From NCBI GenBank assembly GCA_000002435.2, contig CM018793.1: a DNA stretch of 64,000 nt; one strand, written 5' to 3'. This DNA is from Giardia intestinalis (taxonomy: Eukaryota). Shown here in pieces: positions 1 through 22,362 of the stretch (the first letter of the stretch is position 1; each line of letters opens with the position of its first letter). A program made the position numbers and the translations under genes. The notes under the pieces are model-generated. The model was not told the DNA's origin. It was given only the letters and a program-made list of their open reading frames with translations, and searched no databases.

Positions 1-126
1 CTTGCAGATTTCCAGTGAGCCTATGTCGGATCAGCAAGCCCGTAAGTTCAATGAGTGCTCGTCTACACTAGCAGACTTCCTAGACAGATCTATACGTTAC
101 CTGAGTGATCTATTCAGTATTCATTA
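1..126 (+). CDS. Partial 3' end of an upstream + strand gene. Frame 2 is open from the window edge to TAA at 124-126 (...LQISSEPMSDQQARKFNECSSTLADFLDRSIRYLSDLFSIH*). Product unknown.
   Basis: Open frame running off the left edge and ending in a stop; no motif recognised. Confidence 0.2.
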
Positions 127-161
127 AGCAACAAGCCAGTGAAATGCAGAGTGATGGGTCC

Positions 162-2018: not shown

Positions 2019-2177
2019 ACCATGCGGCCTTCGATAGAAGCTATCCCATTGGTGTTAATTATAAGTGAATATTAGGGCCTGAATTAGAGCGCTTATCCAA
2101 GCATCTGAGCTGACATAGCGTTCAGGGATCCTAAAGCATTTGTCAAAATTTCTAAATTTTAACAAGGCAGAGAGCAT

Positions 2178-5264: not shown

Positions 5265-5555
5265 GCATAACTTTCCAGTTTTATTTCGGGCTTCGCTTAT
5301 GTCTTGAAGGCTTCATTTTTACATATTACATTAAACGTATCGGATTGGATAATTTATTAAAAGTTTAAATTGCTATCTGTGCCCGCATCCTGTGTAATGT
5401 AGAATTATCGTTATACTGATTGCTTAGGGATGAAGACCTGCAGGTGCTCAGATCCCATATTTTGGTGAATACGTTTGGAGAAAAGCCTACCTAGGAGCTG
5501 TTGTAGACATGTAAATTCTACCTCAAAAAAGAGCTCATTACTCAGTGGGATTTGG

Positions 5556-8357: not shown

Positions 8358-8427
8358 CTGCATGCATAATTTTAGAGTTTCCCGCGTTAAAAAATCCATT
8401 AAATTCCGCCAATGTGGAAAATTTAAA

Positions 8428-10872
8428 ATGTTCAAGATCAAGGACTCCGACAGCTGGTTTTCTGCGGTCTCCGAAGGGAAGGCGAAGCTCGTTGCAGCGT
8501 CGGCCAAGTCCTTCAAGGGTTTTCGTAATGAGAACCAAGAAACTGCTCTCATCCTAGCAGCGAAGCTCAACCATCCGGATATTGTTGAAGCCTTAGCTGT
8601 GCACGAGGCGAGGCACACAGACAGCAATGGATATACTGCGCTTATGTGGGCAGCTAAGAACGGAGACGCCAGAATGGTCCGGGCCCTCATTAATAGCGAG
8701 CGTGATATTGTCTTGCCCGATGGGCGTGATGCGCTATCCTTGGCTGCAGAGGCGGGAAATTTGGAAACCACAAATGCCCTTGTCCCCTTCTTCGAGCTCG
8801 CTAGGCCTTCTACTGGACTTTCGGCTCTTGACTATGCGGCCCGTGCAAACCATGGAGAAGTAGTTAAGGCGCTCATTGCAGAGTTCGATCCGGCTGTGCA
8901 CGTACTCGAAGCAGCACTTCGGCAGGCAGAGATTATGAACCACGGGGAGCTAGCGTCCTACCTTAGGAGTGTTGTTGACTCTAAAGCAGATGGAGTTTCC
9001 CCCATAGGCTCCGCGGGTAGTAATTTTGTCTCTCGCCTAGCAACTCCGAATACTCATTCGCCGTGTGCTAGTGTTGTTCCTTTACAGACACACGCAAGCT
9101 ATGCAGACTGCGAACGGATGGCGGCCTATGCGCACAAGCTTGAGGATGAACTTAGGGAGGAGCGCAGTAAGACGCATATCGATGCTAACCGCATTCTAGG
9201 TAAGTCATACACCGACGAGGATCTTCGCATGTACATTGCGACAATGGAGGCCAAATTGGAAGCATCGGATCGTGAGCGTGTAAAGCTGCACGCAGAGATC
9301 ATGGAGCTTCGTCGGCACTACGGAGATTCGAAGAAGGCTGGTGCAGGTGATATGAATGTGGTTTCTCGTTCTCTAACCGAGCTTCAAAAGCTTAGAAAAG
9401 AAAACTCTGACCTTCAGGATGTTATCAAGAGCCAGACTAGCCGCATAAATGGTTTGGTTGCAACTAGCAAGCGTCAGAGTGAGTTGTTGCGTAGCATTAA
9501 CAAGTCTGGTGCTGATGGAGATAGCGCAATGGGGGCGACCAAGAGTATGCGTGAGTTACATAGTCTGGAGGAAAAGTTGCAGGAAACGGACACACAGTAT
9601 ACAAAACTAAGGAAAGAGCATGGGCGTTTGCGTGGAGAGCATGAAGATCTTAAGGAAAAGTACGAGGAGGCTTGCAAAATGCTGGCCACCAAAGAAAATG
9701 GCGAAGATGCAGTAAAGACCCTGAATGCGATGGAGTCTAAGTCAAGGGCGGAGCGTCAGAGAATGAATGACACGAAAATGATGTCGCACCGAAATAGAAG
9801 TAGCGCTAGCCCGAGCCATCGTGCTTGTGCTGAGCCTAAGAGCATAATTGAATCTCCCAAACGTGGTAGTTCTTATGGAACGATGGGACCGCCTAGACGC
9901 ACCGTTAGCAGGCTGACTGAGCAGAACATTCCTGTAATTGCGCCATCTAGTGGGGATGCAGATAGTTTCGCTGCCGCATTTGATAACACGTTGTCGAAGA
10001 CTCCAAAGGACTCCACTTATAAAACAGCCGGAACATATCAGGCGATAAAGAGTTCCAAGGAAAAAGACAAGGAAATTGCCCAACTTAAGGATGAGCTTTT
10101 TAATTGCTATTCTGCAGACGAGGTTGAAAAGCTGCACCGTGTAATTGAACTCCGTGAGGCTCAACTCGCAGATGTTACAAAGGAGCGTGATGCCTTAGGT
10201 GCTTACCTGGATCGTTACAACACGTCGCAGTATAATGCGCAACAGGTGGCAGACGAGAACGACCACTTGAAGCGAAGGATTGCTGCACGCGACGAGGCCA
10301 TCCATAAGATGACACGTGAGCTTTGTACCGTGGCGCGTGCCTCTAGATCAACCATGGAGTCCAAATTGCAGGAAAAGGACCAAGAAATTGCACGACTTAA
10401 TGAGAAGATTACTGCCTTACATGATGATTATATGCGTTTGAAGAATGACCCCAATATTCCGCAGCAGACCGCGCTCGGGATCGAGTCCCGGGAGAAGTAC
10501 CTCCGGATGATCGCAGACACGGAGCAGCAGAATCACGTCTACCGGAAGCTCATCCAGGACCAGCAGGCGCAGATCGGCATGCTGGTCGCGCAGCTGGGGG
10601 CGGCCGAGAGCCAGGCGCAAGCCCTCGCTGCTGACGGGCTTCGGGGGTCGGCAACCTGGGCCCCCAGCGAGGCGCAGCCAGCTCTGGGGCCGTTCCCGCA
10701 GTGCCCGCCCCAGTCCTCTGCCCGCAGCCCTCTGGATGCCCGTCTGCAGGACGTCGAGATCCTCGAGCGGGAGCAGATGGCGGCACAAAGCGGCGCAAAG
10801 GCAGCCTCTGACCGTCCCTGGACACCACCGAGCGCAGAGGGCTGTGCGCGGCCCGCAAGCTCATACTCATAA
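8428..10872 (+). CDS. Ankyrin-repeat + coiled-coil protein (21.1-like). Its last ~137 codons (10461-10872) lie inside inverted-repeat arm A and are visibly GC-rich. The ORF is open from 8362, 5 nt after the previous stop; the AT-rich stretch ending ...aaaatttaaaATG at 8428 looks like the real start (MFKIKDSDSWFSAV...).
   Basis: WFSAV N-terminal motif. Ankyrin repeats (ETALILAAKLNHPDIVEALA; GYTALMWAAKNGDARMVRALI). Long coiled coil. C-terminal Q/A-rich tail duplicated at 21947-22357. Confidence 0.7.
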   Translation: MFKIKDSDSWFSAVSEGKAKLVAASAKSFKGFRNENQETALILAAKLNHPDIVEALAVHEARHTDSNGYTALMWAAKNGDARMVRALINSERDIVLPDGRDALSLAAEAGNLETTNALVPFFELARPSTGLSALDYAARANHGEVVKALIAEFDPAVHVLEAALRQAEIMNHGELASYLRSVVDSKADGVSPIGSAGSNFVSRLATPNTHSPCASVVPLQTHASYADCERMAAYAHKLEDELREERSKTHIDANRILGKSYTDEDLRMYIATMEAKLEASDRERVKLHAEIMELRRHYGDSKKAGAGDMNVVSRSLTELQKLRKENSDLQDVIKSQTSRINGLVATSKRQSELLRSINKSGADGDSAMGATKSMRELHSLEEKLQETDTQYTKLRKEHGRLRGEHEDLKEKYEEACKMLATKENGEDAVKTLNAMESKSRAERQRMNDTKMMSHRNRSSASPSHRACAEPKSIIESPKRGSSYGTMGPPRRTVSRLTEQNIPVIAPSSGDADSFAAAFDNTLSKTPKDSTYKTAGTYQAIKSSKEKDKEIAQLKDELFNCYSADEVEKLHRVIELREAQLADVTKERDALGAYLDRYNTSQYNAQQVADENDHLKRRIAARDEAIHKMTRELCTVARASRSTMESKLQEKDQEIARLNEKITALHDDYMRLKNDPNIPQQTALGIESREKYLRMIADTEQQNHVYRKLIQDQQAQIGMLVAQLGAAESQAQALAADGLRGSATWAPSEAQPALGPFPQCPPQSSARSPLDARLQDVEILEREQMAAQSGAKAASDRPWTPPSAEGCARPASSYS

Positions 10873-10877
10873 GTAAA
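10871..10877 (+). promoter_or_regulatory. Putative Giardia-type polyadenylation signal AGTAAAC overlapping the TAA stop of the 8428-10872 gene.
   Basis: Matches the AGTRAAY consensus described for Giardia 3' ends and sits at the stop codon. Confidence 0.35.
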
Positions 10878-10939
10878 CACTTCTGTAAGTACTTCTGATA
10901 AAAAGAATTAAAATATAAATATATCTGGCGCGCCCCCAG

Positions 10940-11011
10940 TCCGGCGTAGTATAACGGCTAGAATGGTTGGTTCTCACCCAACAGATCCGGGTTCGATTCC
11001 CGGCGCCGGAG
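10940..11011 (+). tRNA. tRNA-Glu, anticodon CUC.
   Basis: Cloverleaf by hand. Acceptor TCCGGCG/CGCCGGA. Anticodon stem GTTGG/CCAAC with loop TTCTCAC (U33, CTC at 34-36, A37). T-arm CCGGG-TTCGATT-CCCGG. Discriminator G at 11011. 72 nt including discriminator. Confidence 0.85.
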
Positions 11012-12222
11012 CGTTTCCCGCCTTCCTTCGTCTTAGCATACGCCGCCCCACGGTGGGCCCAGACCCTAAGTATCGATTTGCAAAGACAGCTGACCGGACT
11101 GTCGCACAAGTAAGTAAGCTCGTGATCTGCAGCCAGTGATGATGCATCCATATTTAGTGAACAATAAACCAATTCCTAGAACTCCGGAATATAACTGGCT
11201 GTACTATGAGCCGACACAAGCCTTGAAGATAGATCTGCCACAACGTAATTAACTCTGCGCTGGGCGCCAAAGGTAGCCAGTCTATAGTGAGCTAGGCTCC
11301 ACAGGTCACATTTAGTATTGCATGCATGAAACGTGCTACTCCTCTACACGGCAAGTATAGCTTGTGAAAGAATGCACACTTGATTCTCGGTGTCTAGCTG
11401 CAAAGGTGATACATCTTTTAATGCATAGATGAATGGGTTTTTTGTAGCTCAGATAAAAAAGGTAGAATGGGCATTGGAAGAGCAAAACTCTAGAAGATAG
11501 GTTGGCATTCATTAAAAGGTAAGCTTCGAAGTGCACAAGTCTTTCAACCACATTCTCACTTTTAGTTTGAAGATTGTTCCACCTCATACAATCGGATTCT
11601 TTTGCAATCGCTGAAATTGTCATACCATCTCTTTCTAATTCTAACTTAATAGGAAACGCAACTACAAAGCCATTGGTTAATGGCCAACGTCACTATCATT
11701 ACATGAGCTATTAACTACTCATCTCACCATCTTTGTACTATGTTTAGCTTATCTTTTCGAAGAAGACTAGCCCGAGGTCAAATCTCTATAGCACCAGCTG
11801 GGCGTACCTCATAGGTATGCAGATTACTAGAAGTATACATTAATACTATGCTTAGTTTCCCCTTTAGTTATATTATTTACCTACATAGTAGAGAGATTGT
11901 AAATCGCTCGGAAGAAGAGTGAACTTCTAAAACAAATACTTAGTAGAATAAGATATGCGACACTACTGTTAGCTGTAGCGTCTACCGCAAAAGCGCCGGC
12001 CCAACGAATCTTTCTACAGTGGCGCGCAAAGTGTACTCGCGCACGCTACTGTCCTGACCTAGACATGGGACAGAAAATAGCCACTGATAAGAATTTATAC
12101 CTAACAAGATTTAGAGCGGTTTCAGTCGAATACTAATAAAGCGGAACCATTTATCTAGTCTAACTAGGGTAAGAATAGGTCCCGATTGTTCCAGTTTCAC
12201 AGAAACAGGAACGTAGATCTGC

Positions 12223-15200
12223 TCAAGCTGTCAATGGCCGGAGCCCGCTGGCCTGAGATTTATGCTTGGATGCCATCAAACTAAATGTGAGCCCGATGGT
12301 CCCGCCTACAAGAACGGTCACGCCAAGGGTGATCCCTGTGATCGCGCCTGGGCCGAGGCGGCGCTTGACCGACGAGCCTCCGCAGTAGTTCTCCAGGGGG
12401 AGGTTTCCGTCCGCACAACGGAGGCAGAGGACGGCGCCTGACCCTGCCTGCGCCTGGCAGAGCCCGCACCCGTGGATGCCTGCCATCCGAAGCCCCTGGG
12501 GCGCCGTCTGGTCGCAGGGCACACAGTCCCGGGGGCCTCCGAGGGGCGTCGCCTGGAAGTACCTGTCGGCACAGGCCAGACAGCTGGCTGCCGACGAGCA
12601 GGCGGCGCACGGAGAGGGGCATGCCAGGCAGCGGTCGCCCGCCAGGTGCCAGCCCCTCTTGCAGGAGGTGCAGACACCCCCGTCGCAACGGGCGCAACCG
12701 GCCGCGGTGCACGGGCTGCACGAGCCCCCGGAGAGCCCGTAGCCTTCCGCGCAGGCGTGGCACGTGACCCCCGCCCTTGCCCGGTCTGCCGCGCACACGG
12801 CACAGTGTGGAATTCCCGTGAAACCGTTCTGGCTTGTCACATCATCGCACGGGCGGCAATCGGACGGAGCAGAGACAGAGCTCTGCGTCGAGTAGTATCC
12901 CTGGCTGCACGCGCTGCATGTGGTGGCAGATGTGCAGCGGAGGCAACCAGGCGCGCAGGGGATGCATTCGCTGCCGCTTGTCCAGAAGCCCTCTGTCGGA
13001 CAGTCGCGGGGGCACAGGAGCATCCCGTCCAGAGTCAGCGCCTTGCGTCCACTCTCGCACGCCAGACAGACGACCGGGCCCACGCGATCAGCGAGGCGGC
13101 ACCTCTGGCAGCCGTCGACCCCTGTCCATCCTCCGCCTGCCCCCGCGTCGTTGCACAGCAGGCACCTGCTGGCGCTGGAGTGGGTCGGCCTGACCTCGAC
13201 GGCATTCTCGTTGCATCCTATGCACGCTATACTTTGCTCCCTACAGAGGCATTGCGGAGGGCAGATCTTGGGGACGCACTCTTCGCCGTTCCAGATGTGC
13301 TCTGGGACGCAGCTGGTGCATCTCGTGCTTGTACACGTTGCACAGTTGTCGATCGCGCACGGGATGCAGCTGTCAGCGGCCTCGTAGTACGTCATTGGAC
13401 AGACTGCATGGCAGGTCACCTCTGTCCCGGTCGAGAGCGCCTTGTAGCCCGGGAGACAGTCCTTGCACAGTGCGGGGCCCGCTACCTTCGGAGCCTCACA
13501 GAGCCTGCAGCCACTCACTCCCACCCAGCTGTCCCTGCCAGACGTGTCCGAGCAGGCAAGACAGGCTCCCAGGCCAGGCGTGGTGAACGTGCCAAAGTAT
13601 CCCTCGGCGCACTCTTTGCATTTATCAGCCCCCATACCATCGCACGTCTTGCACGCTGGGTGGCACGCAATGCAGGACGTGCTCTGGAGATAGTATCCGG
13701 CCCTGCAAGCAGTGCACGTGTTGGGGTCGTCTACGCACGCGCCGCAGTTGGGATCGGAGCAGCGCACGCAGCCCTTATCTGTCTTGGAAAAGCCTGCCTT
13801 GCATGCAGTGCACCCGGACGTCGACTCCGTGGTGTCTCCACAAATGCTCGTCCCCGGCGCCCTTTCCTTTGTGTAGCAGGCGCCCTCGAAGAGGAACATC
13901 CCGTCTCCGCAGTGCGAGCACACGCCCTTGCTGCAGATAAGTCCCTCCTTCGGCTCTGCGCACGTGCCATCCAGAGGAACCTCTCCGTCGATCAGGCAGC
14001 GCCCGCAGACGACCTGGCCGTCGACGACCACTGCATCGCGCTCATCGCAGATACCCGTGCCGGGGTACTCGCCTGCGGAGTAGCAGCCCCCCTGGTGGAG
14101 GAAGTAGCTCCCTCGGCACGCGGTGCAGCGGCCCTTCTTGGCGTCCTTTACGCATGGACCGGCAAGTGAGCGAGCTTCTCCAGGATAGAGTGTGCAGACG
14201 CCGTCGATCGGCACATAATCACTCGACGCGCACTGCGAGCACAGAGACCCGTCCATGACTGTGCAGGAGCCCCAACTGCAAGCGTCCTGCCCCACTCTTT
14301 TGCAGGGCTTCGTGCAGTATGCCCCGGCCCCGACGCCTGTCAGCGTGTAGGGCTGAATGCATTCTGTGCAGTACTTCACGTCTATCTCGCAGCTGGCGCA
14401 GTTGGAGACGGCGCAGGACATGCACGTCAGCGTCTCCTTGTTGTGACGGTAGCCGGGTCTGCACCGCCGACAGGTTCCGGCATCGCGGCCTGTTCCAAGG
14501 ACTTCGCAAATCCCACTTCCAGGAGTAGTCGTGATATCATAGCAGCCTCCCTCGTGGAAGAAGTAGTTCTCGGGACATATGACGCATAAACCGCTGGAGC
14601 ACGAGACACCATCTGGCACATCCTTTGTACACAGGCCATTTATTGGAAACTCTCCTGCAAGATTGCACTGCTTGCAATATGTGCGCCTTCCGACTGTCAG
14701 AAGCTCCCTACAAATGCCAGACCCGGGAATCGCGGCAGGGTCATAGCACCCGCCCATGTAGAGCATGTATCCGCGTAGGCACCCTGTGCAGACGCCCTTC
14801 CCCTTCTCGCAAACATAGTCTGTGTCATGCCCCGTGCAAGCCCCGTTGATCGGCCACTCGTCATCCAGCGCACACCTGGAACAGTACAGCGAGCCCATCG
14901 CCGTACAGCTGCCAGCCTTACAGTTACCAGACTCTGATCTACTGTCGTTGCAGCTTTGGATACACCGCGAGCCGTCCTCGCTAGGAATGTGCTTGTCCTT
15001 GCATCGCGTGCAGATGACCCTCTTTGGTGTCTCGCTTGGATAGCACTCTGTGCAGCCGTCAACGCCCGTGTATCCATTTGTTGCACCTGTATCATTACAT
15101 AGGATGCAGGACTCCTTTGTGGGATCGAGCAGGTCTGTGCTGTAGTACCCGGAGGCACACGATGTGCACACCCCTGCAACCGCTGAGTCGACGGCCACCG

Positions 15201-18200
15201 CGCAGACCACCGTTCCAGGCGAGCGTCCTATCTCGTAGCACCCCCCGGCGTGCAGGAAGAACCTTGGCCCGCAGCGTGTGCACGACGTGGGGCTTGGTGT
15301 GGCAGCGACACATTGCGATCTGATTGCCCTAGTGTTAGCCAATGCAACGCACGAGCCGTCGATCGGGACTTCCCCGTCTCGCTTGCATTGCTTGCAGATC
15401 GTGTACGGGCCCAGCGTAGCCTGGTGCTGGCTGTCACATATGGCAGTCCCAGCTGTTGCGCCTTTAGCATAGCAGCCCCCATAGTAGAGGAGGTGCGTGT
15501 CCTTGCAAGCCGCACACGTCCCGCTGGATGGGGTTGTACGGATGCAAGCGTCGTCATTTGCCTTGCACTTTCCGTCGATGATAACGCTGCTTAATAGCGC
15601 ACAGCGGCTGCATGCGAGCGTGCCGTTGACATTGCAGTATCCTGCAGCACAGGACGTGGGAAGCAATCCAACGGGGCATTCCTCAGTACATATGTTATTC
15701 CTCAGTGCAAATCTATCCTTGCAGACCTTACACCCAGTACTATCGCACTTCTTACACCCGGGTGTGCATGCAACACACGAGTTCCCACTGGCATAGTACC
15801 CATCCTGGCAAGAGGCGCAGGTATTTGCCGCATCGCACGTCAAGCAGTGGAGCACGCTGCAAGCAACACACTTTCCGGCCGCAAGATAGAAGCCGTCTGC
15901 GCATCCCGTGCATTTTGTTGCACTATCCTGGCACGTCTTGCAGCTCTTATCACACATCTGACAGAACTCAGCAGACTCATACATCCCATCCGGACACTTA
16001 GTAAAGCATGCAACCGTTGCAGGACTTCCATCCTTGGTTATCTGGAATGACTTAACACCCTGTTTGCACGACCTGCAGATGCCATCTCCCTTGACGGTGC
16101 AGTCATCCGAGACCTTGCACTCCCCATCAACGGGCACCTCATCCTTCTGCTTACACTTCGCACAAAACGACCCTGCGCCCGATGTCACGACATCCTGGGC
16201 GTCGCAGATGTCCCCCGCCTCGAACGACCCCGCTTCATAGCAGCCACCCTTGTACTTGATGTATCTGTGGGTGCAGTATTTGCAGGTGCCATTAGCTTGT
16301 TTATATTGTATGCACACGCCTGCGGCCACTGAAGCACACACGCCGTTGACTGGGCCCTCGGCGTCAGCAGCGCACTGGGAGCAGTAGAACGTGCCCAGGA
16401 CATCACACTTGTCCTTTCTGCACCTGTGCTCCTTGGGGTCTGCCTCTGCCTCAACGCACGTTTGCACGCACTCCGTTCCCCCGTTCATTGGTCTGTAGAA
16501 CTGCTCGCAGGCAACACAGACCAGGAGTCCGTTGGAAACCTTGCAGCTCTTGCAGTGGGGTATGCCCTTCAGCGTGTCGCTGTTCTCTGTGCACGGAACA
16601 CACGAGTCGCTGATACTTGAGCGGTCGGGGGGCGCGTAGTATCCCTCTTTACAAATATCACAGATCCCATTGTCAGATCCGATGCTTTTGCATAGTATAG
16701 TTCCGGGAGCAAGGTCTGCTGAGACACAACTCCCTTTAAGCAGAAAATGATTGTCAACACAATAATAACATCGTCCAGTAGGCACACGGGCCAAAACGCA
16801 CGGAGAAAGCTTGCTGTCAGACATAGGAATGCAGTGCCCATTAACTGGCAGATCAGATAAAATGCTACATCGGAAGCAATACGTCACGCCATCCATTACA
16901 GCATACTCGCCACAAATGGCGTTTCCTGGATAGGTCTTTGGATTATAGCAACCATTCTTATAATAAAAGAATAATCCTGCGCATCCAGTGCATGTACCAT
17001 TTGGCACACCCGACTTCTTACATATATTCTCCTTATCGACACTAGTACATTTGCCATCGATAAGAGCATCTGTATTCAACGCGCACTTTGAACAAAAGGT
17101 AGCTCCAAGCACATTACAAAAATCAACGGCACACTGACCTGATCTAGGTTGTAGCGAGTCAGTCGGGAGAGGGCAGCTTTCCTCGCATACACCGTTAACC
17201 AATAAATAGCGATCTAGACAGCTTGTGCAGTGTCCTGGACCAGAGATTAGGGGAGCTAAACACGTTCTACAAAAAGCTATACCGGTGTAGCCGAAAATTC
17301 CACCTACATCGCTACAGTGAATGCACGATTGAATCGTTGAGCTTCGAACAGGATTGAGATAATAAGTTGGTCCACATACTTCGCAAACGCCTGCTCTTGC
17401 TTTAGTGCATATCTGTGGATAAAATTCTGGTGTAAAGCAAACTGTACGGTGCAAGAAATATCCAGCTCCACAACCAGTGCACACTCCCTCTTTGCACGTA
17501 TTTCCATAAGTTTCGGTGGTGCAAGATCCGTTAATAGGATATTCTGTTTCGAGAGTGCATTTCTTACAATATGTAAATCCATAACCTGTAAGTGTGTGTT
17601 CCTTTTCACATATCGGTATTACTGGCTTAATCGTATTGTAACATCCACCGTAGTAGAGAAGATAGCCTTTTGAGCATCTCCGGCATCTACCGCCCTCCAT
17701 AACAGCACACTCGGGAGCATCTTCCCGTAGAGGCCGGCAAACCCCATCTATGGGAACCTCACGTTCTATACTACACCTTTCGCAGAATGTCTTATCACGA
17801 ACAACACATCCTCCGTAAATGCAGCCCCCAGGCGTGAGTTCCTCCGTGCAAGCTTTAACACATGAGTCCTTACCTTCATTCTTTTGAAGCTGATAACTAT
17901 AAGCGCAACTATTGCAAACGTCCACGCCCCCATCACAGTTTACGCAGTACTTGATGTTACATGGTCTGCATTCTGATCCAACATGGGTATATCCAGAGGC
18001 ACAAACTGAACAAGTAGCTGTGTCGTCGACATCCTTACAAATACTGAGGCCGATGGGCGTTCCTTTTTCATAGCATCCTCCTTTGTAAGGAAAATACCGA
18101 GGTGGACACTCTGTGCAGCGGCCAGATACTACTTTGGCGCCCATTAAGGCAGATGTGCACTGTCCATTTATGGGGCACTCATTATCATTTGCGCAACAAG

Positions 18201-19812
18201 AACAAAGTGCAGACGAGAAAATGTTGCAATGATCAGACTTACATGACCCCGGAGCAAGACCGTTTGTCCAGCACGATATTTCGCAGTGATTTTCTGTTAG
18301 GAGATATCCCCTTTCGCAGACTGTGCATTGCGCTCGTTGGCCTCGTGGAAGAGGTAAGCATTTTGCACAGTGAGCTATGCCAGCGTTATCGTACTGAAGA
18401 AGTACATCATTACAATACTTGCACATACCTTTCCCCATCGAAAACACTTGAAAGAATATTTCTGGAGCACAAGAAGTACAATCATTCGCGTTAGGACCAA
18501 GGCATGAAGCACAATTTGAATGGCATGGAATACAATCTCCTCTGTTGCGAAAATAGTTGTCTACACACGCTTTGCATTTCCCAGCATTATCCACCTCGTT
18601 ACATATGACGTTTCCTGGAGCAGATTCTGGGGAATAACATCCACCTTGGTAAATGAAGTAATTCTTACCACAAGAGGTACACTTAATAGAGACAGGTGTT
18701 GGTAGACCGCCGGCTGAATCTCGACAACCAGAAGTTACAACTAGCGGATTATTGTATGGCACACATACTCCGTTGATTGGAACGAAACCAGGCGTACCAC
18801 ATTTCGCACAAAAGGTTGCACCCCTAATATCAGTAGTGTAGGCACATGCCTTAAGTCCTAGCTCAGTATCCACACGATAACATCCGCCTTGAAAAAGGAT
18901 GTATCCCTTTCCACAGTTATCACACATTCCCAACGAGATGGATATATGGAGACAAATATTCTGGTCATTAGAAGTGCAAACTCCGTTAATCGGTACTTCG
19001 GTGCCAAGAGAACAGTGGGCACAGAGTTTGTTCTCAAAAGCAGTACATCCATCTTCAGCACACTTTCCAGACTTGGCTATTTTACTTTTATCACAAGTGA
19101 GAATACATGTACGAGTCTGTGAATCATATGAATAGTTATCAATACAAAGAAGACACTCATTAGGCGTTGCACCCGTACACATCAAGCAATTGCTAGGGCA
19201 AGTAAGACACTGATTTCCAGCCAAATAATATTGTGCTTGACAAGAGAGGCATTTCAAAGAATCACTGGTACTCATTGTACAAGAGCGACAATTTTCTATA
19301 CCGTAAGGTTTATCTGAACACCTTTTACAGAGAGACCCATCAAGAAAACGATCCGGAGGACAACTCAGGCACTGATTTTCAGAACTTCCAGAACAAGAAC
19401 TGCAGTGAGCATGACAGGTCTTACAAGTCTGAGGAGTTGCTTGAGTGTCGAGATAGTAACCTAAAGAGCATATTTTGCAAAGATTCCTGGCTAGATCAAC
19501 GCAAATAAGATTTCCAGGACTATAAAGTATATTGTAACACCCGCCCTCATGAATGAAATAATTCTTTTCTACACATGAAGAACAGGTTTTAGCAGAGTTT
19601 TTAAGAGGCTTACCTGCCTCAGAAGCGCAGCCGGAGGCCACAGCCCTGGGGTCGTCGTACGGGATACAGAGTCCGTTTATAGGAACCTCACCAGGGGTGG
19701 CACACTCAGAACAATACCGGCCCTCTAAAATAGTGCATTTTCCTATAGCGCACTCTCCAGGTCGATTCCCATGGGTACATGAGAGTGCAAGTCCAAAAAT
19801 GATCGCCAGCAT
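12223..19812 (-). CDS. High-cysteine membrane protein (HCMP), 2529 aa. It has a signal peptide, dozens of CXXC/EGF-like modules, one C-terminal TM helix and a short cytoplasmic tail.
   Basis: N-terminal MLAIIFGLALSCTHG signal-like segment. Pervasive C-x2-C and GGCY motifs (e.g. CTSCGKNYFIYQGGCY). C-terminus GITLGVTVLVGGTIGLTFSLMASKHKSQASGLRPLTA (TM + tail). ATG at 19810-19812. The 3' ~4.4 kb is visibly GC-rich; the 5' ~3.1 kb is AT-richer. Confidence 0.85.
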   Translation of the reverse strand: MLAIIFGLALSCTHGNRPGECAIGKCTILEGRYCSECATPGEVPINGLCIPYDDPRAVASGCASEAGKPLKNSAKTCSSCVEKNYFIHEGGCYNILYSPGNLICVDLARNLCKICSLGYYLDTQATPQTCKTCHAHCSSCSGSSENQCLSCPPDRFLDGSLCKRCSDKPYGIENCRSCTMSTSDSLKCLSCQAQYYLAGNQCLTCPSNCLMCTGATPNECLLCIDNYSYDSQTRTCILTCDKSKIAKSGKCAEDGCTAFENKLCAHCSLGTEVPINGVCTSNDQNICLHISISLGMCDNCGKGYILFQGGCYRVDTELGLKACAYTTDIRGATFCAKCGTPGFVPINGVCVPYNNPLVVTSGCRDSAGGLPTPVSIKCTSCGKNYFIYQGGCYSPESAPGNVICNEVDNAGKCKACVDNYFRNRGDCIPCHSNCASCLGPNANDCTSCAPEIFFQVFSMGKGMCKYCNDVLLQYDNAGIAHCAKCLPLPRGQRAQCTVCERGYLLTENHCEISCWTNGLAPGSCKSDHCNIFSSALCSCCANDNECPINGQCTSALMGAKVVSGRCTECPPRYFPYKGGCYEKGTPIGLSICKDVDDTATCSVCASGYTHVGSECRPCNIKYCVNCDGGVDVCNSCAYSYQLQKNEGKDSCVKACTEELTPGGCIYGGCVVRDKTFCERCSIEREVPIDGVCRPLREDAPECAVMEGGRCRRCSKGYLLYYGGCYNTIKPVIPICEKEHTLTGYGFTYCKKCTLETEYPINGSCTTETYGNTCKEGVCTGCGAGYFLHRTVCFTPEFYPQICTKARAGVCEVCGPTYYLNPVRSSTIQSCIHCSDVGGIFGYTGIAFCRTCLAPLISGPGHCTSCLDRYLLVNGVCEESCPLPTDSLQPRSGQCAVDFCNVLGATFCSKCALNTDALIDGKCTSVDKENICKKSGVPNGTCTGCAGLFFYYKNGCYNPKTYPGNAICGEYAVMDGVTYCFRCSILSDLPVNGHCIPMSDSKLSPCVLARVPTGRCYYCVDNHFLLKGSCVSADLAPGTILCKSIGSDNGICDICKEGYYAPPDRSSISDSCVPCTENSDTLKGIPHCKSCKVSNGLLVCVACEQFYRPMNGGTECVQTCVEAEADPKEHRCRKDKCDVLGTFYCSQCAADAEGPVNGVCASVAAGVCIQYKQANGTCKYCTHRYIKYKGGCYEAGSFEAGDICDAQDVVTSGAGSFCAKCKQKDEVPVDGECKVSDDCTVKGDGICRSCKQGVKSFQITKDGSPATVACFTKCPDGMYESAEFCQMCDKSCKTCQDSATKCTGCADGFYLAAGKCVACSVLHCLTCDAANTCASCQDGYYASGNSCVACTPGCKKCDSTGCKVCKDRFALRNNICTEECPVGLLPTSCAAGYCNVNGTLACSRCALLSSVIIDGKCKANDDACIRTTPSSGTCAACKDTHLLYYGGCYAKGATAGTAICDSQHQATLGPYTICKQCKRDGEVPIDGSCVALANTRAIRSQCVAATPSPTSCTRCGPRFFLHAGGCYEIGRSPGTVVCAVAVDSAVAGVCTSCASGYYSTDLLDPTKESCILCNDTGATNGYTGVDGCTECYPSETPKRVICTRCKDKHIPSEDGSRCIQSCNDSRSESGNCKAGSCTAMGSLYCSRCALDDEWPINGACTGHDTDYVCEKGKGVCTGCLRGYMLYMGGCYDPAAIPGSGICRELLTVGRRTYCKQCNLAGEFPINGLCTKDVPDGVSCSSGLCVICPENYFFHEGGCYDITTTPGSGICEVLGTGRDAGTCRRCRPGYRHNKETLTCMSCAVSNCASCEIDVKYCTECIQPYTLTGVGAGAYCTKPCKRVGQDACSWGSCTVMDGSLCSQCASSDYVPIDGVCTLYPGEARSLAGPCVKDAKKGRCTACRGSYFLHQGGCYSAGEYPGTGICDERDAVVVDGQVVCGRCLIDGEVPLDGTCAEPKEGLICSKGVCSHCGDGMFLFEGACYTKERAPGTSICGDTTESTSGCTACKAGFSKTDKGCVRCSDPNCGACVDDPNTCTACRAGYYLQSTSCIACHPACKTCDGMGADKCKECAEGYFGTFTTPGLGACLACSDTSGRDSWVGVSGCRLCEAPKVAGPALCKDCLPGYKALSTGTEVTCHAVCPMTYYEAADSCIPCAIDNCATCTSTRCTSCVPEHIWNGEECVPKICPPQCLCREQSIACIGCNENAVEVRPTHSSASRCLLCNDAGAGGGWTGVDGCQRCRLADRVGPVVCLACESGRKALTLDGMLLCPRDCPTEGFWTSGSECIPCAPGCLRCTSATTCSACSQGYYSTQSSVSAPSDCRPCDDVTSQNGFTGIPHCAVCAADRARAGVTCHACAEGYGLSGGSCSPCTAAGCARCDGGVCTSCKRGWHLAGDRCLACPSPCAACSSAASCLACADRYFQATPLGGPRDCVPCDQTAPQGLRMAGIHGCGLCQAQAGSGAVLCLRCADGNLPLENYCGGSSVKRRLGPGAITGITLGVTVLVGGTIGLTFSLMASKHKSQASGLRPLTA

Positions 19813-19999: not shown

Positions 20000-20596
20000 G
20001 TGCTAATTTTGCATTGTATTATGTGCGCGGCAGACCGGGCAAGGGCGGGGGTCACGTGCCACGCCTGCGCGGAAGGCTACGGGCTCTCCGGGGGCTCGTG
20101 CAGCCCGTGCACCGCGGCCGGTTGCGCCCGTTGCGACGGGGGTGTCTGCACCTCCTGCAAGAGGGGCTGGCACCTGGCGGGCGACCGCTGCCTGGCATGC
20201 CCCTCTCCGTGCGCCGCCTGCTCGTCGGCAGCCAGCTGTCTGGCCTGTGCCGACAGGTACTTCCAGGCGACGCCCCTCGGAGGCCCCCGGGACTGTGTGC
20301 CCTGCGACCAGACGGCGCCCCAGGGGCTTCGGATGGCAGGCATCCACGGGTGCGGGCTCTGCCAGGCGCAGGCAGGGTCAGGCGCCGTCCTCTGCCTCCG
20401 TTGTGCGGACGGAAACCTCCCCCTGGAGAACTACTGCGGAGGCTCGTCGGTCAAGCGCCGCCTCGGCCCAGGCGCGATCACAGGGATCACCCTTGGCGTG
20501 ACCGTTCTTGTAGGCGGGACCATCGGGCTCACATTTAGTTTGATGGCATCCAAGCATAAATCTCAGGCCAGCGGGCTCCGGCCATTGACAGCTTGA
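20000..20596 (+). pseudogene. Detached copy of the HCMP C-terminal ~190 codons (cysteine modules + TM + ...KHKSQASGLRPLTA tail). It has no signal peptide and no upstream gene body. Probably a gene fragment created by the inverted duplication, but an ATG at 20000 abuts the shared AT-rich promoter region.
   Basis: Protein identical to the C-terminus of 12223-19812 from CAADRARAGVTCHACAEGY onward. The first 8 codons (MLILHCIM) are unique. Confidence 0.5.
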
Positions 20597-21807
20597 GCAG
20601 ATCTACGTTCCTGTTTCTGTGAAACTGGAACAATCGGGACCTATTCTTACCCTAGTTAGACTAGATAAATGGTTCCGCTTTATTAGTATTCGACTGAAAC
20701 CGCTCTAAATCTTGTTAGGTATAAATTCTTATCAGTGGCTATTTTCTGTCCCATGTCTAGGTCAGGACAGTAGCGTGCGCGAGTACACTTTGCGCGCCAC
20801 TGTAGAAAGATTCGTTGGGCCGGCGCTTTTGCGGTAGACGCTACAGCTAACAGTAGTGTCGCATATCTTATTCTACTAAGTATTTGTTTTAGAAGTTCAC
20901 TCTTCTTCCGAGCGATTTACAATCTCTCTACTATGTAGGTAAATAATATAACTAAAGGGGAAACTAAGCATAGTATTAATGTATACTTCTAGTAATCTGC
21001 ATACCTATGAGGTACGCCCAGCTGGTGCTATAGAGATTTGACCTCGGGCTAGTCTTCTTCGAAAAGATAAGCTAAACATAGTACAAAGATGGTGAGATGA
21101 GTAGTTAATAGCTCATGTAATGATAGTGACGTTGGCCATTAACCAATGGCTTTGTAGTTGCGTTTCCTATTAAGTTAGAATTAGAAAGAGATGGTATGAC
21201 AATTTCAGCGATTGCAAAAGAATCCGATTGTATGAGGTGGAACAATCTTCAAACTAAAAGTGAGAATGTGGTTGAAAGACTTGTGCACTTCGAAGCTTAC
21301 CTTTTAATGAATGCCAACCTATCTTCTAGAGTTTTGCTCTTCCAATGCCCATTCTACCTTTTTTATCTGAGCTACAAAAAACCCATTCATCTATGCATTA
21401 AAAGATGTATCACCTTTGCAGCTAGACACCGAGAATCAAGTGTGCATTCTTTCACAAGCTATACTTGCCGTGTAGAGGAGTAGCACGTTTCATGCATGCA
21501 ATACTAAATGTGACCTGTGGAGCCTAGCTCACTATAGACTGGCTACCTTTGGCGCCCAGCGCAGAGTTAATTACGTTGTGGCAGATCTATCTTCAAGGCT
21601 TGTGTCGGCTCATAGTACAGCCAGTTATATTCCGGAGTTCTAGGAATTGGTTTATTGTTCACTAAATATGGATGCATCATCACTGGCTGCAGATCACGAG
21701 CTTACTTACTTGTGCGACAGTCCGGTCAGCTGTCTTTGCAAATCGATACTTAGGGTCTGGGCCCACCGTGGGGCGGCGTATGCTAAGACGAAGGAAGGCG
21801 GGAAACG

Positions 21808-21879
21808 CTCCGGCGCCGGGAATCGAACCCGGATCTGTTGGGTGAGAACCAACCATTCTAGCCGTTATACTACGCCGGA
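21808..21879 (-). tRNA. Second copy of tRNA-Glu (CUC), inside IR arm B.
   Basis: Exact reverse complement of 10940-11011: ctccggcgccgggaatcgaacccggatctgttgggtgagaaccaaccattctagccgttatactacgccgga. Confidence 0.85.
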
Positions 21880-21946
21880 CTGGGGGCGCGCCAGATATAT
21901 TTATATTTTAATTCTTTTTATCAGAAGTACTTACAGAAGTGTTTAC

Positions 21947-22312
21947 TTATGAGTATGAGCTTGCGGGCCGCGCACAGCCCTCTGCGCTCGGTGGTGTCCA
22001 GGGACGGTCAGAGGCTGCCTTTGCGCCGCTTTGTGCCGCCATCTGCTCCCGCTCGAGGATCTCGACGTCCTGCAGACGGGCATCCAGAGGGCTGCGGGCA
22101 GAGGACTGGGGCGGGCACTGCGGGAACGGCCCCAGAGCTGGCTGCGCCTCGCTGGGGGCCCAGGTTGCCGACCCCCGAAGCCCGTCAGCAGCGAGGGCTT
22201 GCGCCTGGCTCTCGGCCGCCCCCAGCTGCGCGACCAGCATGCCGATCTGCGCCTGCTGGTCCTGGATGAGCTTCCGGTAGACGTGATTCTGCTGCTCCGT
22301 GTCTGCGATCAT
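21947..22312 (-). pseudogene. Orphan copy of the GC-rich C-terminal tail of the 21.1-like gene (MIADTEQQNHVYRKLIQDQQAQ...PASSYS). It lies immediately 3' of, and out of frame (+2) with, the stop of the 22363-27345 gene.
   Basis: 121-aa ORF identical to the C-terminus of 8428-10872. Preceded by the TAG stop of the upstream ankyrin gene, with no start context. Confidence 0.5.
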
Positions 22313-22362
22313 CCGGAGGTACTTCTCCCGGGACTCGATCCCGAGCGCGGTCTGCTGTGAAA

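What the first reader, a model, noticed from the sequence alone, without database searches (positions are those of the whole stretch)
12223..19812. Compositional mosaic inside a single 2529-aa HCMP ORF: GC-rich 3' ~4.4 kb vs AT-richer 5' ~3.1 kb, with the switch near 16650-16750
Read on the + strand, 12223 to ~16600 is dense in G/C (runs like gcgcctgaccctgcctgcgcctggcagagcccgcaccc). From ~16750 to 19812 the same ORF becomes conspicuously A/T-rich (ataataaaagaataatcctgc, ttacaatatgtaaatcc) while still encoding the same CXXC/GGCY modules. Such a sharp intragenic shift suggests the gene is a recombinant of two HCMP paralogues with different codon usage. Alternatively, GC-biased gene conversion has acted on the 3' half, the part nearest to and partly within the inverted repeat. 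The GC-rich half also produces long spurious antisense ORFs (e.g. 12472-14169 on + strand), which is a gene-calling trap.
Basis: seen in the sequence. Interest (0 to 1): 0.6.

Follow-up and report, generated by a model that had tools for sequence, protein, structure and literature searches.

The report
Gene-conversion boundary inside a Giardia gene
The sharp jump in G+C content inside this giant Giardia surface-protein gene marks the edge of a 4.3-kb stretch that is repeatedly copied between three sister genes on different chromosome-scale contigs; the copying seems to favour G and C, so this is a very clean example of a known process, not a new one.

Summary
In the 2529-aa ORF 12223-19812(-) (Giardia intestinalis WB 'High cysteine membrane protein TMK-like', KAE8305131.1), GC3 steps from 0.35 to 0.71 at codon 1057 (window ~16642). 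The log-likelihood ratio is 160, against about 7 in permutations.

The step coincides with a switch in evolutionary history.
- **Upstream (codons 1-1056):** the gene is locus-specific. Orthologues in assemblages A and E are 87% identical in DNA; the two paralogues on other contigs are ~51% identical, with synonymous sites saturated.
- **Downstream (codons 1057-~2504):** copies within one assemblage are 96-97% identical, while every A-E comparison is 86%. No site supports grouping by locus; 433 support grouping by assemblage.

So the 3' 4.3 kb evolves in concert by inter-locus gene conversion, independently in A and E.

Derived AT-to-GC changes have spread to more copies than GC-to-AT changes (p~1e-8), although new mutations are AT-biased. 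This points to GC-biased conversion. The AT-rich spacer of the neighbouring inverted repeat argues against a simple form of that model.

The inverted repeat is not the driver. The antisense ORF is spurious.

The parts
12223..19812 (-). Complete ORF, 2529 aa: Giardia intestinalis WB 'High cysteine membrane protein TMK-like' (KAE8305131.1 / XP_001709278.1 / A8B5Q2); here called locus 1
   Evidence: Pfam VSP PF03302, E 2e-171, 17 stretches; exact match in the protein collection; 13% Cys, 110 CXXC, 11 GGCY
16645..19812 (-). Locus-specific 5' part, codons 1-1056, GC3 0.35. Orthologues A-E are 87% identical in DNA; paralogues are ~51% identical with synonymous sites saturated
   Evidence: (965 sites support the locus split, 20 the assemblage split)
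16630..16665 (-). Junction. The homogenised tract starts at codon ~1057 in assemblage A copies and at codon ~1049-1054 in assemblage E copies. The GC3 change-point is at codon 1057 in WB and DH and at codon 1075 in P15
12301..16644 (-). Concerted-evolution tract, codons 1057 to ~2504 (4.34 kb), GC3 0.71. It is shared at 96-97% DNA identity with two paralogues on other chromosome-scale contigs. All A-E comparisons are 86%
   Evidence: 0 against 433 sites; AT-to-GC changes spread more than GC-to-AT
12223..12300 (-). Locus-specific end of the transmembrane segment, the cytoplasmic tail (SKHKSQASGLRPLTA) and the stop codon. This is the 3' limit of the tract
   Evidence: alignment of the C-terminal ends of 8 sequences
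10462..12797 (.). Left arm of a perfect 2336-nt inverted repeat. It holds the GC-rich last 137 codons of ankyrin ORF 8362..10872, tRNA-Glu, a 1.3-kb AT-rich spacer, and the last 191 codons of the HCMP
   Evidence: also present with identical arms in P15 and DH
20022..22357 (.). Right arm of the inverted repeat
20022..20596 (+). Second copy of the HCMP 3' end, annotated as a 191-aa 'High cysteine membrane protein' (KAE8305132.1). Most likely a gene fragment
12472..14169 (+). Antisense ORF of 565 codons. It is a by-product of the GC3-rich sense frame
   Evidence: 2-4 stops in the same frame in DH, P15 and two paralogue copies (1 stop in L2_DH). Codon-shuffled controls give a mean of 423 open antisense codons, 95th percentile 550
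10940..11012 (+). tRNA-Glu(CTC) in the left arm. Its twin is at 21807-21879(-)

Best explanation
The GC step marks the 5' edge of a tract of concerted evolution. Giardia intestinalis has three full-length, collinear 'TMK-like' HCMP genes of about 2520-2540 aa on three different chromosome-scale contigs. Locus 1 is this window. Locus 2 lies next to a Dopey_N gene and locus 3 next to a lipase gene. Codons 1057 to ~2504 of locus 1 are repeatedly overwritten in patches by, or overwrite, the same stretch of loci 2 and 3 through non-reciprocal recombination (ectopic gene conversion). The three copies therefore stay 96-97% identical within a lineage while they drift together away from other lineages. 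Upstream of codon 1057, locus 1 no longer exchanges with the others. That part has diverged to saturation, so homology-dependent recombination can no longer cross the edge, which keeps the edge sharp and in nearly the same place in assemblages A and E. New mutations in the tract are mostly G/C to A/T, but A/T to G/C variants are the ones that spread to several copies. This holds GC3 near 0.7. The isolated 5' part sits at GC3 0.35, close to neighbouring genes (~0.40). Shown here: the step, the coincidence with the topology switch, independent homogenisation in A and E, and the GC-biased spread. Inferred: that the bias comes from GC-biased repair of heteroduplex DNA (gBGC) and not from selection, and that sequence divergence is what freezes the edge. 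My confidence is about 0.9 for the conversion-boundary part and about 0.6 for GC-biased conversion as the cause of the composition; the figure given is for the two together.
For: - **The step.** Change-point at codon 1057, log-likelihood ratio 160.
- **The family.**
- **DNA identity in the 5' half.** Orthologues WB-P15 0.872; locus 1 against loci 2/3 0.51.
- **DNA identity in the 3' half.** WB locus 1 against DH locus 2 or 3, 0.962 and 0.957; P15 locus 1 against P15 locus 2, 0.973; every A-E pair 0.854-0.870.
- **Substitution rates (Nei-Gojobori).** Orthologue dS is 0.52 and 0.46 and dN/dS 0.12 and 0.17 in the two halves, so rate and constraint are equal. Paralogue pS is 0.82-0.87 in the 5' half, against dS 0.04-0.08 in the 3' half.
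- **Informative sites.** 965 locus against 20 assemblage before codon 1057; 0 against 433 after it. The switch falls within codons 1050-1075.
- **No locus signal in the tract.** WB proteins of loci 2 and 3 (from the chromosome-scale WB assembly) confirm it: the six A copies are 0.951-0.975 identical, and WB locus 1 is closest to WB locus 3.
- **Shuffling of variants.** The same polymorphisms sit at different loci in WB and DH. 39 sites conflict with orthology. A run of 17 concordant polymorphic sites over 249 nt has p=0.002.
- **Biased spread.** Derived alleles among 4 A copies, polarised by 2 E copies, counted as present in 1, 2 or 3 copies: at third positions AT-to-GC [4,12,17] against GC-to-AT [59,26,9], p=4e-8; at all positions p=2e-8; at non-CpG sites p=0.002. 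Singletons imply a mutational GC3 equilibrium near 0.13, against 0.71 observed. Fixed A-E differences are symmetric, 213 against 193.
- **GC3 rises with the number of partners.** Locus 1 5' part, no partner, 0.36. Locus 2 in P15, where locus 3 is cut down to ~254 codons, 0.55. Loci 2 and 3 in DH, which exchange over nearly their full length, 0.63-0.64. The three-copy tract, 0.69-0.71.
- **Direction of change after partner loss.** In locus 2 codons 255-1050, DH has G/C where P15 has A/T at 139 third positions and the reverse at 71 (p=3e-6). In the shared tract the counts are 170 and 143 (Fisher p=0.008).
- **Against codon-usage selection.** The 5' part of the same transcript has GC3 0.35. First and second codon positions also show the bias (p=0.03), and amino-acid composition shifts.
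- **Literature.** Genes in putative conversion events in assemblage A are GC-enriched and VSP-enriched (PMC12669663).
Against: - **The inverted-repeat spacer stays AT-rich.** The repeat arms next to the gene are homogenised even more efficiently: 0 differences within WB, P15 and DH, against 6-32% between A and E. Yet their 1.3-kb spacer has G+C 0.42, like ordinary intergenic DNA. A simple 'conversion makes DNA GC-rich' rule fails there.
- **The partner-loss comparison is imperfect.** P15 locus 2 has lower GC3 than DH locus 2 even in codons 40-254, where a partner fragment survives (0.49 against 0.57).
- **Polarisation is by parsimony with two outgroup copies.** I estimate about 3-5 spurious high-frequency AT-to-GC sites against 17-25 observed, but no formal correction was made.
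- **Too much divergence between isolates.** WB-DH divergence in the tract (dS 0.083) equals the paralogue distance, which is more than a simple neutral balance predicts (~0.03). The DH and P15 assemblies are 454-era and may switch between paralogues.
- **Missing data.** DNA of WB loci 2 and 3 was not available, only the proteins. No assemblage B homologue was found to serve as outgroup.
- **Selection is not excluded.** Selection for G/C cannot be formally separated from biased repair with these data.
Confidence: 0.7

Rival explanations
1. One-off chimera. A single past recombination joined the 5' half of an AT-rich HCMP paralogue to the 3' half of a GC-rich one. The two halves simply keep their parental codon usage.
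For: The gene really has two histories that meet at the GC step. A founding recombination event cannot be excluded as the origin of the arrangement.
Against: The mosaic is already present in the P15 orthologue at the same position, so a single event would predate the A/E split. Yet the 3' halves of paralogues are 96-97% identical within A and within E and only 86% between them, with 0 sites supporting the locus split. That requires later, separate exchange in each lineage. The paralogues are collinear over the full length, with 10 gaps in 2534 columns. This fits old full-length duplicates, not a splice of unrelated genes. GC3 0.71 is held against AT-biased mutation input, so it is not passive inheritance.
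Confidence: 0.08
2. Unbiased conversion plus decay. The family was GC-rich from the start. Unbiased homogenisation merely slows change in the shared tract, while the isolated 5' half of locus 1 has decayed towards the AT-rich mutational equilibrium. No GC bias in conversion is needed.
For: Mutation input is AT-biased. The 5' part of locus 1 has the GC3 of its neighbours. The inverted-repeat spacer is homogenised but AT-rich.
Against: Unbiased conversion does not alter the substitution rate or the equilibrium composition, and A-E dS is the same in both halves (0.52 and 0.46). With that much turnover and a mutational equilibrium near 0.13-0.22, the tract should have lost G+C. Instead both lineages stay at 0.69-0.71 with symmetric fixed differences. 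AT-to-GC variants are over-represented at high copy frequency (p~1e-8, and 0.002 without CpG sites).
Confidence: 0.12
3. Selection, not repair bias. G/C-ending codons, or G/C-encoded residues, are favoured in the membrane-proximal 3' part, for example for expression or for RNA or protein stability. Conversion only spreads the favoured variants.
For: The GC-rich segments in and around the gene are coding (the HCMP tract and the ankyrin tail with dN/dS 0.16), while the converted non-coding spacer is AT-rich. A skew in derived-allele frequency cannot separate selection from biased conversion.
Against: Translational selection should act on the whole transcript, but the first 1056 codons have GC3 0.35, below the neighbouring genes. 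The edge of the GC-rich part coincides with the conversion edge to within a few codons and not with any module boundary. Homologous 5' positions in loci 2 and 3 differ in GC3 according to whether a partner is present. First and second positions and amino-acid content drift with G+C.
Confidence: 0.12
4. The inverted repeat drives the composition. Arm-to-arm conversion of the 2.3-kb repeat raises G+C in the adjoining 3' half of the gene.
For: The repeat is real, perfect, and homogenised within lineages. The GC3 step of the ankyrin ORF (10459) lies at the outer edge of the repeat (10462).
Against: The repeat contains only 575 nt (12223-12797) of the 4.34-kb GC-rich tract. The tract extends 3.8 kb beyond the inner edge of the repeat with no change in GC3 or in paralogue identity there. 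The spacer inside the repeat is AT-rich.
Confidence: 0.03
5. Assembly artefact. The contig wrongly joins reads from two different HCMP genes.
For: The tract is a 96-97% repeat on three contigs, which is the sort of sequence that mis-assembles. The DH contig breaks inside the inverted-repeat arms.
Against: Three independent assemblies (WB chromosome-scale, DH, P15) have the same junction, gap-free and in frame, in the same syntenic context.
Confidence: 0.02

Closest known systems
Partial concerted evolution of dispersed or duplicated genes with GC enrichment of the converted part, attributed to GC-biased gene conversion (mammalian histone and Hsp70 paralogues and rDNA; from my own knowledge, plus Escobar et al. 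2011 as cited in PMC10123126)
   Same: Paralogues within a lineage are more alike than orthologues between lineages. The converted stretch is GC3-rich compared with the unconverted flanks. Mutation input is AT-biased but fixation is GC-biased.
   Different: The edge lies in the middle of a single 7.6-kb ORF, and nearly the same edge is kept in two assemblages. The partners are on three chromosome-scale contigs. The organism has no demonstrated meiosis in sub-assemblage AI, so the conversion would be mitotic or parasexual. Converted non-coding DNA nearby is not GC-rich.
Recombination and gene conversion among Giardia VSP genes, and GC-rich VSP regions (Adam et al. 2010, PMC2996952; bioRxiv 10.1101/2022.03.07.483299; PMC12669663)
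   Same: Same superfamily (Pfam VSP) and the same organism. Recombination was detected in conserved 3' parts of VSP genes. Genes in putative conversion events of assemblage A are GC-enriched (median 0.541 against 0.488), with a median event length of 3.3 kb.
   Different: Those reports concern VSPs, short 3' regions of 234-657 bp, or AI-to-AII transfer inferred from population data. Here the partners are three identified non-VSP HCMP loci, the tract is 4.34 kb, its two ends are mapped to a few codons, and homogenisation is shown separately in A and E. I found no paper describing this for the TMK-like HCMPs, but the search covered open-access text only.
Identical inverted gene pairs of Giardia VSPs (14 pairs, 2-4 kb apart in PMC2996952; 19 pairs in PMC7000408)
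   Same: A perfect inverted duplication next to, and partly inside, a cysteine-rich surface-protein gene.
   Different: Only the last 191 codons of the HCMP are duplicated, together with a tRNA-Glu gene and the tail of an ankyrin gene. The arms are 7.2 kb apart and enclose the rest of the HCMP gene. The repeat is conserved in assemblage E.
Surface-antigen families in which a conserved C-terminal or membrane-proximal part is homogenised while the exposed N-terminal part diverges (for example trypanosome VSG; from my own knowledge)
   Same: The membrane-distal half is locus-specific and very divergent, while the membrane-proximal half is shared.
   Different: There is no evidence here of switching or of donor arrays. 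Both halves are under similar purifying selection between assemblages (dN/dS 0.12 and 0.17). The very end (transmembrane end and cytoplasmic tail) is again locus-specific.

Membership tests
Giardia high-cysteine membrane proteins (HCMP), non-VSP | VSP-type cysteine-rich ectodomain (Pfam PF03302), more than 10% Cys, many CXXC motifs | tested here: met
   PF03302 E 2e-171 with 17 stretches; 13.0% Cys, 110 CXXC, 11 GGCY
Giardia high-cysteine membrane proteins (HCMP), non-VSP | Single C-terminal transmembrane segment and a short cytoplasmic tail that is not CRGKA | tested here: met
   The sequence ends ...ITGITLGVTVLVGGTIGLTFSLMASKHKSQASGLRPLTA. The hydrophobic stretch was read by eye; no transmembrane predictor was run
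Giardia high-cysteine membrane proteins (HCMP), non-VSP | N-terminal signal peptide | not tested
   The hydrophobic start MLAIIFGLALSC is visible. No signal-peptide predictor was available
TMK-like HCMP subgroup (Davids et al. grouping, as described in bioRxiv 10.1101/2022.03.07.483299) | High score to an HMM built from the ectodomains of Entamoeba transmembrane kinases | not tested
   The name comes from the source annotation. There are only weak hits to Entamoeba kinases: P0040, 40% identity over 7% of the query
Concerted evolution by inter-locus gene conversion | Paralogues within a lineage are more similar than orthologues between lineages, also at synonymous sites | tested here: met
   3' tract: 0.957-0.973 within assemblages against 0.854-0.870 between them; dS 0.04-0.08 against 0.45; 0 against 433 informative sites
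Concerted evolution by inter-locus gene conversion | Tree topology changes at a defined breakpoint, with ordinary orthology in the flanks | tested here: met
   965 against 20 sites before codon 1057; the switch falls within codons 1050-1075; the tail after codon ~2504 is locus-specific
Concerted evolution by inter-locus gene conversion | Mosaic tracts between copies (Sawyer-type runs) | tested here: inconclusive
   Two of six pairs are significant (p=0.002 and 0.028) and the others are not. Polymorphisms are shared across loci, but phasing in the DH assembly is uncertain
GC-biased gene conversion (gBGC) | AT-to-GC variants reach higher frequency than GC-to-AT variants although mutation is AT-biased | tested here: met
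   Third positions [4,12,17] against [59,26,9], p=4e-8; non-CpG sites p=0.002
GC-biased gene conversion (gBGC) | The effect does not depend on coding function: all codon positions, and non-coding DNA inside converted tracts | tested here: not met
   First and second positions do show the bias (p=0.03). However, the homogenised non-coding spacer of the inverted repeat has G+C 0.42, like other intergenic DNA
GC-biased gene conversion (gBGC) | Biased repair of heteroduplex mismatches, observed directly | not testable with these tools
   Needs observed conversion events in clonal lines or crosses
Giardia identical inverted gene pairs | Two identical complete ORFs in inverted orientation, 2-4 kb apart | tested here: not met
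   The arms are identical but carry only gene fragments (191 codons of the HCMP, 137 codons of the ankyrin ORF) and are 7.2 kb apart

The most novel reading that the evidence does not exclude
Ectopic gene conversion with a strong G/C bias may be the general cause of the GC-rich islands at VSP and HCMP genes in Giardia. On this reading GC3 scales with the number of conversion partners (about 0.36 with none, 0.55-0.64 with one, 0.70 with two, as seen here), and GC steps mark tract edges genome-wide. A corollary is that part of what population scans read as AI-AII 'gene conversion' or elevated diversity in GC-rich genes is really exchange between paralogues. Here WB-DH dS is 0.083 in the tract and 0.010 beside it. 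This would give a sequence-only way to map recombination activity in an organism whose sexuality is disputed.
Probability: 0.35. Interest if true: 0.6.

Novelty: new member of a known kind. Interest (0 to 1): 0.45.

Why it matters
- **Annotation and population genomics.** The 4.3-kb tract is a 96-97% repeat on three contigs. Short reads will mis-map there, and 'orthologue' comparisons in it are meaningless: WB-DH dS is 0.083 in the tract and 0.010 next to it. The GC-rich frame also creates a 565-codon antisense ORF, and the inverted repeat creates an annotated 191-aa gene fragment.
- **Giardia biology.** This is a well-delimited case showing that dispersed genes on different contigs exchange sequence in both assemblage A and assemblage E. 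The outcome favours G/C. This bears on why surface-protein regions are GC-rich and on how to read signals of 'recombination' in a supposedly asexual lineage.
- **Limits.** The process itself is known from many organisms, and it has been suggested for Giardia VSPs.

Tried and rejected
1. I first took the P15 protein P0014 for the orthologue. Its 45% then 86% identity profile suggested that the 5' half had been replaced. Missing synteny and the cluster listing showed it is the locus 2 paralogue. The true orthologue is P0053 on L003.
2. A rate difference (a fast-evolving 5' half) is rejected: orthologue dS and dN/dS are the same in both halves.
3. An inversion of the 7.2-kb segment between WB and P15 is rejected: gene order and orientation are the same (one search compared).
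4. DNA of WB loci 2 and 3 is not on record, so DH DNA and WB proteins were used instead.
5. No close assemblage B homologue of the HCMP appeared in the two protein searches. The syntenic B contig (L007) ends 1.1 kb after tRNA-Glu, so no outgroup was obtained.
6. I tested whether the GC-rich ankyrin tail belongs to a larger multi-copy pool. It does not: apart from the orthologue cluster there are only low-complexity hits.
7. The supplementary gene lists of PMC12669663 are not held, so I could not check whether this gene is among its 89 'conversion' genes.
8. No GARD or GENECONV run was possible. Site-split counts and a permutation runs test were used instead.
Full report
**What is there.** The window is Giardia intestinalis WB. 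The 2529-aa product of ORF 12223..19812(-) is identical to KAE8305131.1 / XP_001709278.1, 'High cysteine membrane protein TMK-like', on a 4.02-Mb contig. It has 13% Cys, 110 CXXC and 11 GGCY motifs, and 17 stretches matching Pfam VSP. Its neighbours are ankyrin 'protein 21.1'-type ORFs, a CAP-Gly protein and a BRCT/IMS polymerase.

- G+C is 0.608 for 12223-16641 and 0.443 for 16642-19812.
- GC3 in 100-codon windows is 0.27-0.41 up to codon ~1000 and 0.72 from codon 1051.
- A likelihood change-point lies at codon 1057 (window 16641), with GC3 0.35 before and 0.71 after. The log-likelihood ratio is 160, against at most 6.6 in permutations. No other large ORF in the window comes close.
- The change is a step. 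A slower rise follows, with a second, smaller step near codon 1780.
- GC2 and amino-acid content follow the same trend: G/A/R/P residues rise from 24.5% to 30.2% and F/Y/M/I/N/K residues fall from 24.1% to 16.1%.
- Downstream of the stop codon, G+C falls to ~0.4 within 100-200 nt. The GC-rich part is therefore not a regional feature.

**The gene family.** Protein searches with the two halves gave very different pictures. Together with the cluster listing, they revealed three full-length collinear genes:
- **Locus 1:** this window in WB; L001 in DH (assemblage AII); L003 in P15 (assemblage E), in the same gene order.
- **Locus 2:** next to a Dopey_N gene. L002 in P15, L004 in DH, and protein P0059 in WB on a 1.54-Mb contig.
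- **Locus 3:** next to a lipase gene. L005 in DH, and protein P0063 in WB on a 1.97-Mb contig. In P15 it is cut down to ~254 codons (L006).

I first mistook the P15 locus 2 gene for the orthologue. Missing synteny exposed the error.

**The step is a boundary between two histories.** I used a codon alignment of six DNA copies.

| Comparison | Codons 1-1000 | Codons 1060-end |
|---|---|---|
| Orthologues WB-P15, DNA identity | 0.872 | 0.863 |
| Locus 1 against locus 2 or 3, same assemblage | ~0.51 | 0.957-0.973 |
| All A-E pairs, orthologous or not | n/a | 0.854-0.870 |

Three further results agree:
- Paralogue synonymous sites are saturated in the 5' half (pS 0.82-0.87, dN 0.53), while paralogue dS is 0.04-0.08 in the 3' half. 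Orthologue dS (0.52 and 0.46) and dN/dS (0.12 and 0.17) are alike in both halves, so neither rate nor constraint differs.
- Biallelic sites that support 'locus 1 against loci 2/3' number 965 before codon 1057 and 0 after it. Sites that support 'A against E' number 20 before and 433 after. The switch occurs within codons 1050-1075.
- In the aligned DNA, all A copies become near-identical from codon ~1057 (GGA TAC TAC GCG CCC CCC...) and the E copies from codon ~1049-1054.

The 3' limit is at codon ~2504, inside the transmembrane segment; the cytoplasmic tails are locus-specific and conserved between A and E. The tract is therefore window ~12301-16644. The GC3 change-point is at codon 1057 in WB and DH and at codon 1075 in the P15 orthologue. 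Loci 2 and 3 have no step there.

**Exchange is repeated, not a single event.**
- Homogenisation occurred separately in A and in E.
- Among the six A copies (three WB proteins, three DH), identities in the tract are 0.951-0.975 with no locus signal. WB locus 1 is closest to WB locus 3.
- The same amino-acid polymorphisms sit at different loci in WB and DH.
- 39 sites conflict with WB-DH orthology.
- A runs test finds a 249-nt concordant stretch between DH loci 1 and 2 (p=0.002).
- WB and DH differ by 0.6% in the 5' part and 3.3% in the tract; dS is 0.010 and 0.083.
- A second, nested edge exists. Loci 2 and 3 are locus-specific for codons 1-40 and homogenised from codon ~40 on, again separately in A and E.

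**Why the tract is GC-rich.** I polarised variants among the four A DNA copies with the two E copies.
- GC-to-AT changes are mostly singletons ([108,42,14] for presence in 1, 2 or 3 copies), whereas AT-to-GC changes are spread ([20,20,25]); p=2e-8.
- At third positions the counts are [59,26,9] against [4,12,17], p=4e-8. Without CpG contexts, p=0.002.
- Singleton rates imply a mutational GC3 equilibrium of roughly 0.13. Yet both lineages hold 0.69-0.71, and fixed A-E differences are symmetric, 213 against 193.
- GC3 also follows the number of partners:

| Segment | Conversion partners | GC3 |
|---|---|---|
| Locus 1, 5' part | none | 0.36 |
| P15 locus 2, codons 255-1050 | partner lost | 0.55 |
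| DH loci 2 and 3, same codons | one | 0.63-0.64 |
| Three-copy tract | two | ~0.70 |

- In locus 2 codons 255-1050, DH has G/C where P15 has A/T at 139 third positions and the reverse at 71. In the shared tract the counts are 170 and 143 (Fisher p=0.008).
- Codon-usage selection on the transcript is unlikely, because the first 1056 codons of the same mRNA have GC3 0.35.

I therefore favour GC-biased gene conversion. This is an inference, because selection for G/C gives the same frequency skew.

**What does not fit.**
- The gene's 3' end lies in a perfect inverted repeat (10462-12797 and 20022-22357, 2336 nt, no mismatch). The repeat also has identical arms in P15 and DH, while A and E differ by 6-32%. 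The arms are thus homogenised very efficiently.
- Nevertheless their 1.3-kb spacer has G+C 0.42, like other intergenic DNA. Only the two coding ends are GC-rich.
- One coding end is the last 137 codons of ankyrin ORF 8362..10872. Its GC3 step (10459) lies at the repeat edge (10462). Its GC3 is 0.81 in A and 0.78 in E, with dN/dS 0.16. It is also GC-rich in assemblage B and has no further copies elsewhere. I cannot explain this.
- The repeat covers only 575 nt of the tract, so it is not the cause of the mosaic.
- WB-DH divergence in the tract is higher than a simple neutral balance predicts. Paralogue switching in the DH assembly may contribute.

**Other points.**
- The antisense ORF 12472-14169 is broken by 2-4 stops in DH, P15 and two paralogue copies (one stop in L2_DH). 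Codon-shuffled controls give open antisense stretches averaging 423 codons. It is spurious.
- Independent assemblies share the junction, so the mosaic is not an assembly artefact.

**Comparison with what is known.**
- Recombination among VSP genes and identical inverted VSP pairs are described in PMC2996952 and PMC7000408.
- The higher G+C of VSP regions is noted in bioRxiv 10.1101/2022.03.07.483299.
- A 2025 study found that genes in putative conversion events of assemblage A are GC-enriched and VSP-enriched (PMC12669663).
- GC-biased conversion has been suggested for Giardia rDNA (PMC10123126).
- I found no description of this three-locus HCMP tract, its mapped edges or its independent homogenisation in A and E. 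The search covered open-access text only.

**Verdict.** This is a new, clean example of a known process and is of moderate interest.

Noticed in passing
window 10462-12797 and 20022-22357; L003 ~7458-9785 and ~17021-19348: A perfect 2336-nt inverted repeat flanks the HCMP body. The arms are also identical in P15 and in DH where assembled, yet A and E differ by 6-32%, so the arms evolve in concert. The 1.3-kb spacer inside the arms stays AT-rich (G+C 0.42). The 7.2-kb segment between the arms could in principle invert without breaking the gene; WB and P15 have the same orientation.
   Followed up: partly
window 8362-10872(+), step at 10459: The ankyrin ORF has its own GC3 step (0.49 to 0.80) exactly at the outer edge of the inverted repeat. 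The GC-rich tail is coding (dN/dS 0.16 between A and E), is GC-rich in assemblages A, E and B, and has no other copies outside the repeat. In the right arm the same sequence lies out of frame after the stop of ORF 22363..27345.
   Followed up: partly
window 45828-50596, in ORF 44876..50641(-): A tandem array of 21.2 copies of a 225-nt (75-codon) unit, 99% matching, lies inside a 1921-aa VSP/EGF-like ORF. The GC3 change-point of that ORF (45829; 0.78 inside, 0.54 outside) coincides with the array edge. This is a third case in the window of a GC step at the edge of homogenised DNA.
   Followed up: partly
window 20022-20596(+): The right-arm copy of the last 191 HCMP codons is annotated in GenBank as a separate 191-aa 'High cysteine membrane protein' (KAE8305132.1). 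It has no 5' part and is most likely a gene fragment.
   Followed up: partly
window 10940-11012(+) and 21807-21879(-): tRNA-Glu(CTC) is duplicated within the inverted repeat. It is conserved in P15 (two copies) and in assemblage B (one copy before the contig ends).
   Followed up: no
L001 codon 1280 (aligned to window ~15973-15975): The DH (AII) orthologue has an in-frame TAG where all other copies have TCT or TCC, a change at two bases. This is why it is annotated as a 1279-aa protein. It may be a pseudogene allele or a sequencing error.
   Followed up: no
L006 8926-9654(-); L005 6001-13620: Locus 3 is full-length in assemblage A but cut down to ~254 codons in P15. Loci 2 and 3 show a second sharp conversion edge at codon ~40, where the signal-peptide regions are locus-specific.
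   Followed up: yes
window ~14470 (codon ~1780) and the same position in all paralogues: A secondary GC3 rise (about 0.62 to 0.77) inside the shared tract is present in all six copies. No cause was found. A larger pool of partial partners for the VSP-like distal part is one untested idea.
   Followed up: no
window 42063-44786(-): This VSP-like ORF has GC3 0.74 in its last ~72 codons, against 0.45 upstream. It ends in ...FRGRRIDASPSTMTLIPSKSI and not in CRGKA.
   Followed up: no
L007 (assemblage B, AHHH01000098.1): The syntenic B contig aligns to window 5-11017 at 74.6% identity and ends 1.1 kb after tRNA-Glu. No close B homologue of the HCMP turned up in the protein searches, so either B lacks the gene or it is unassembled.
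   Followed up: partly
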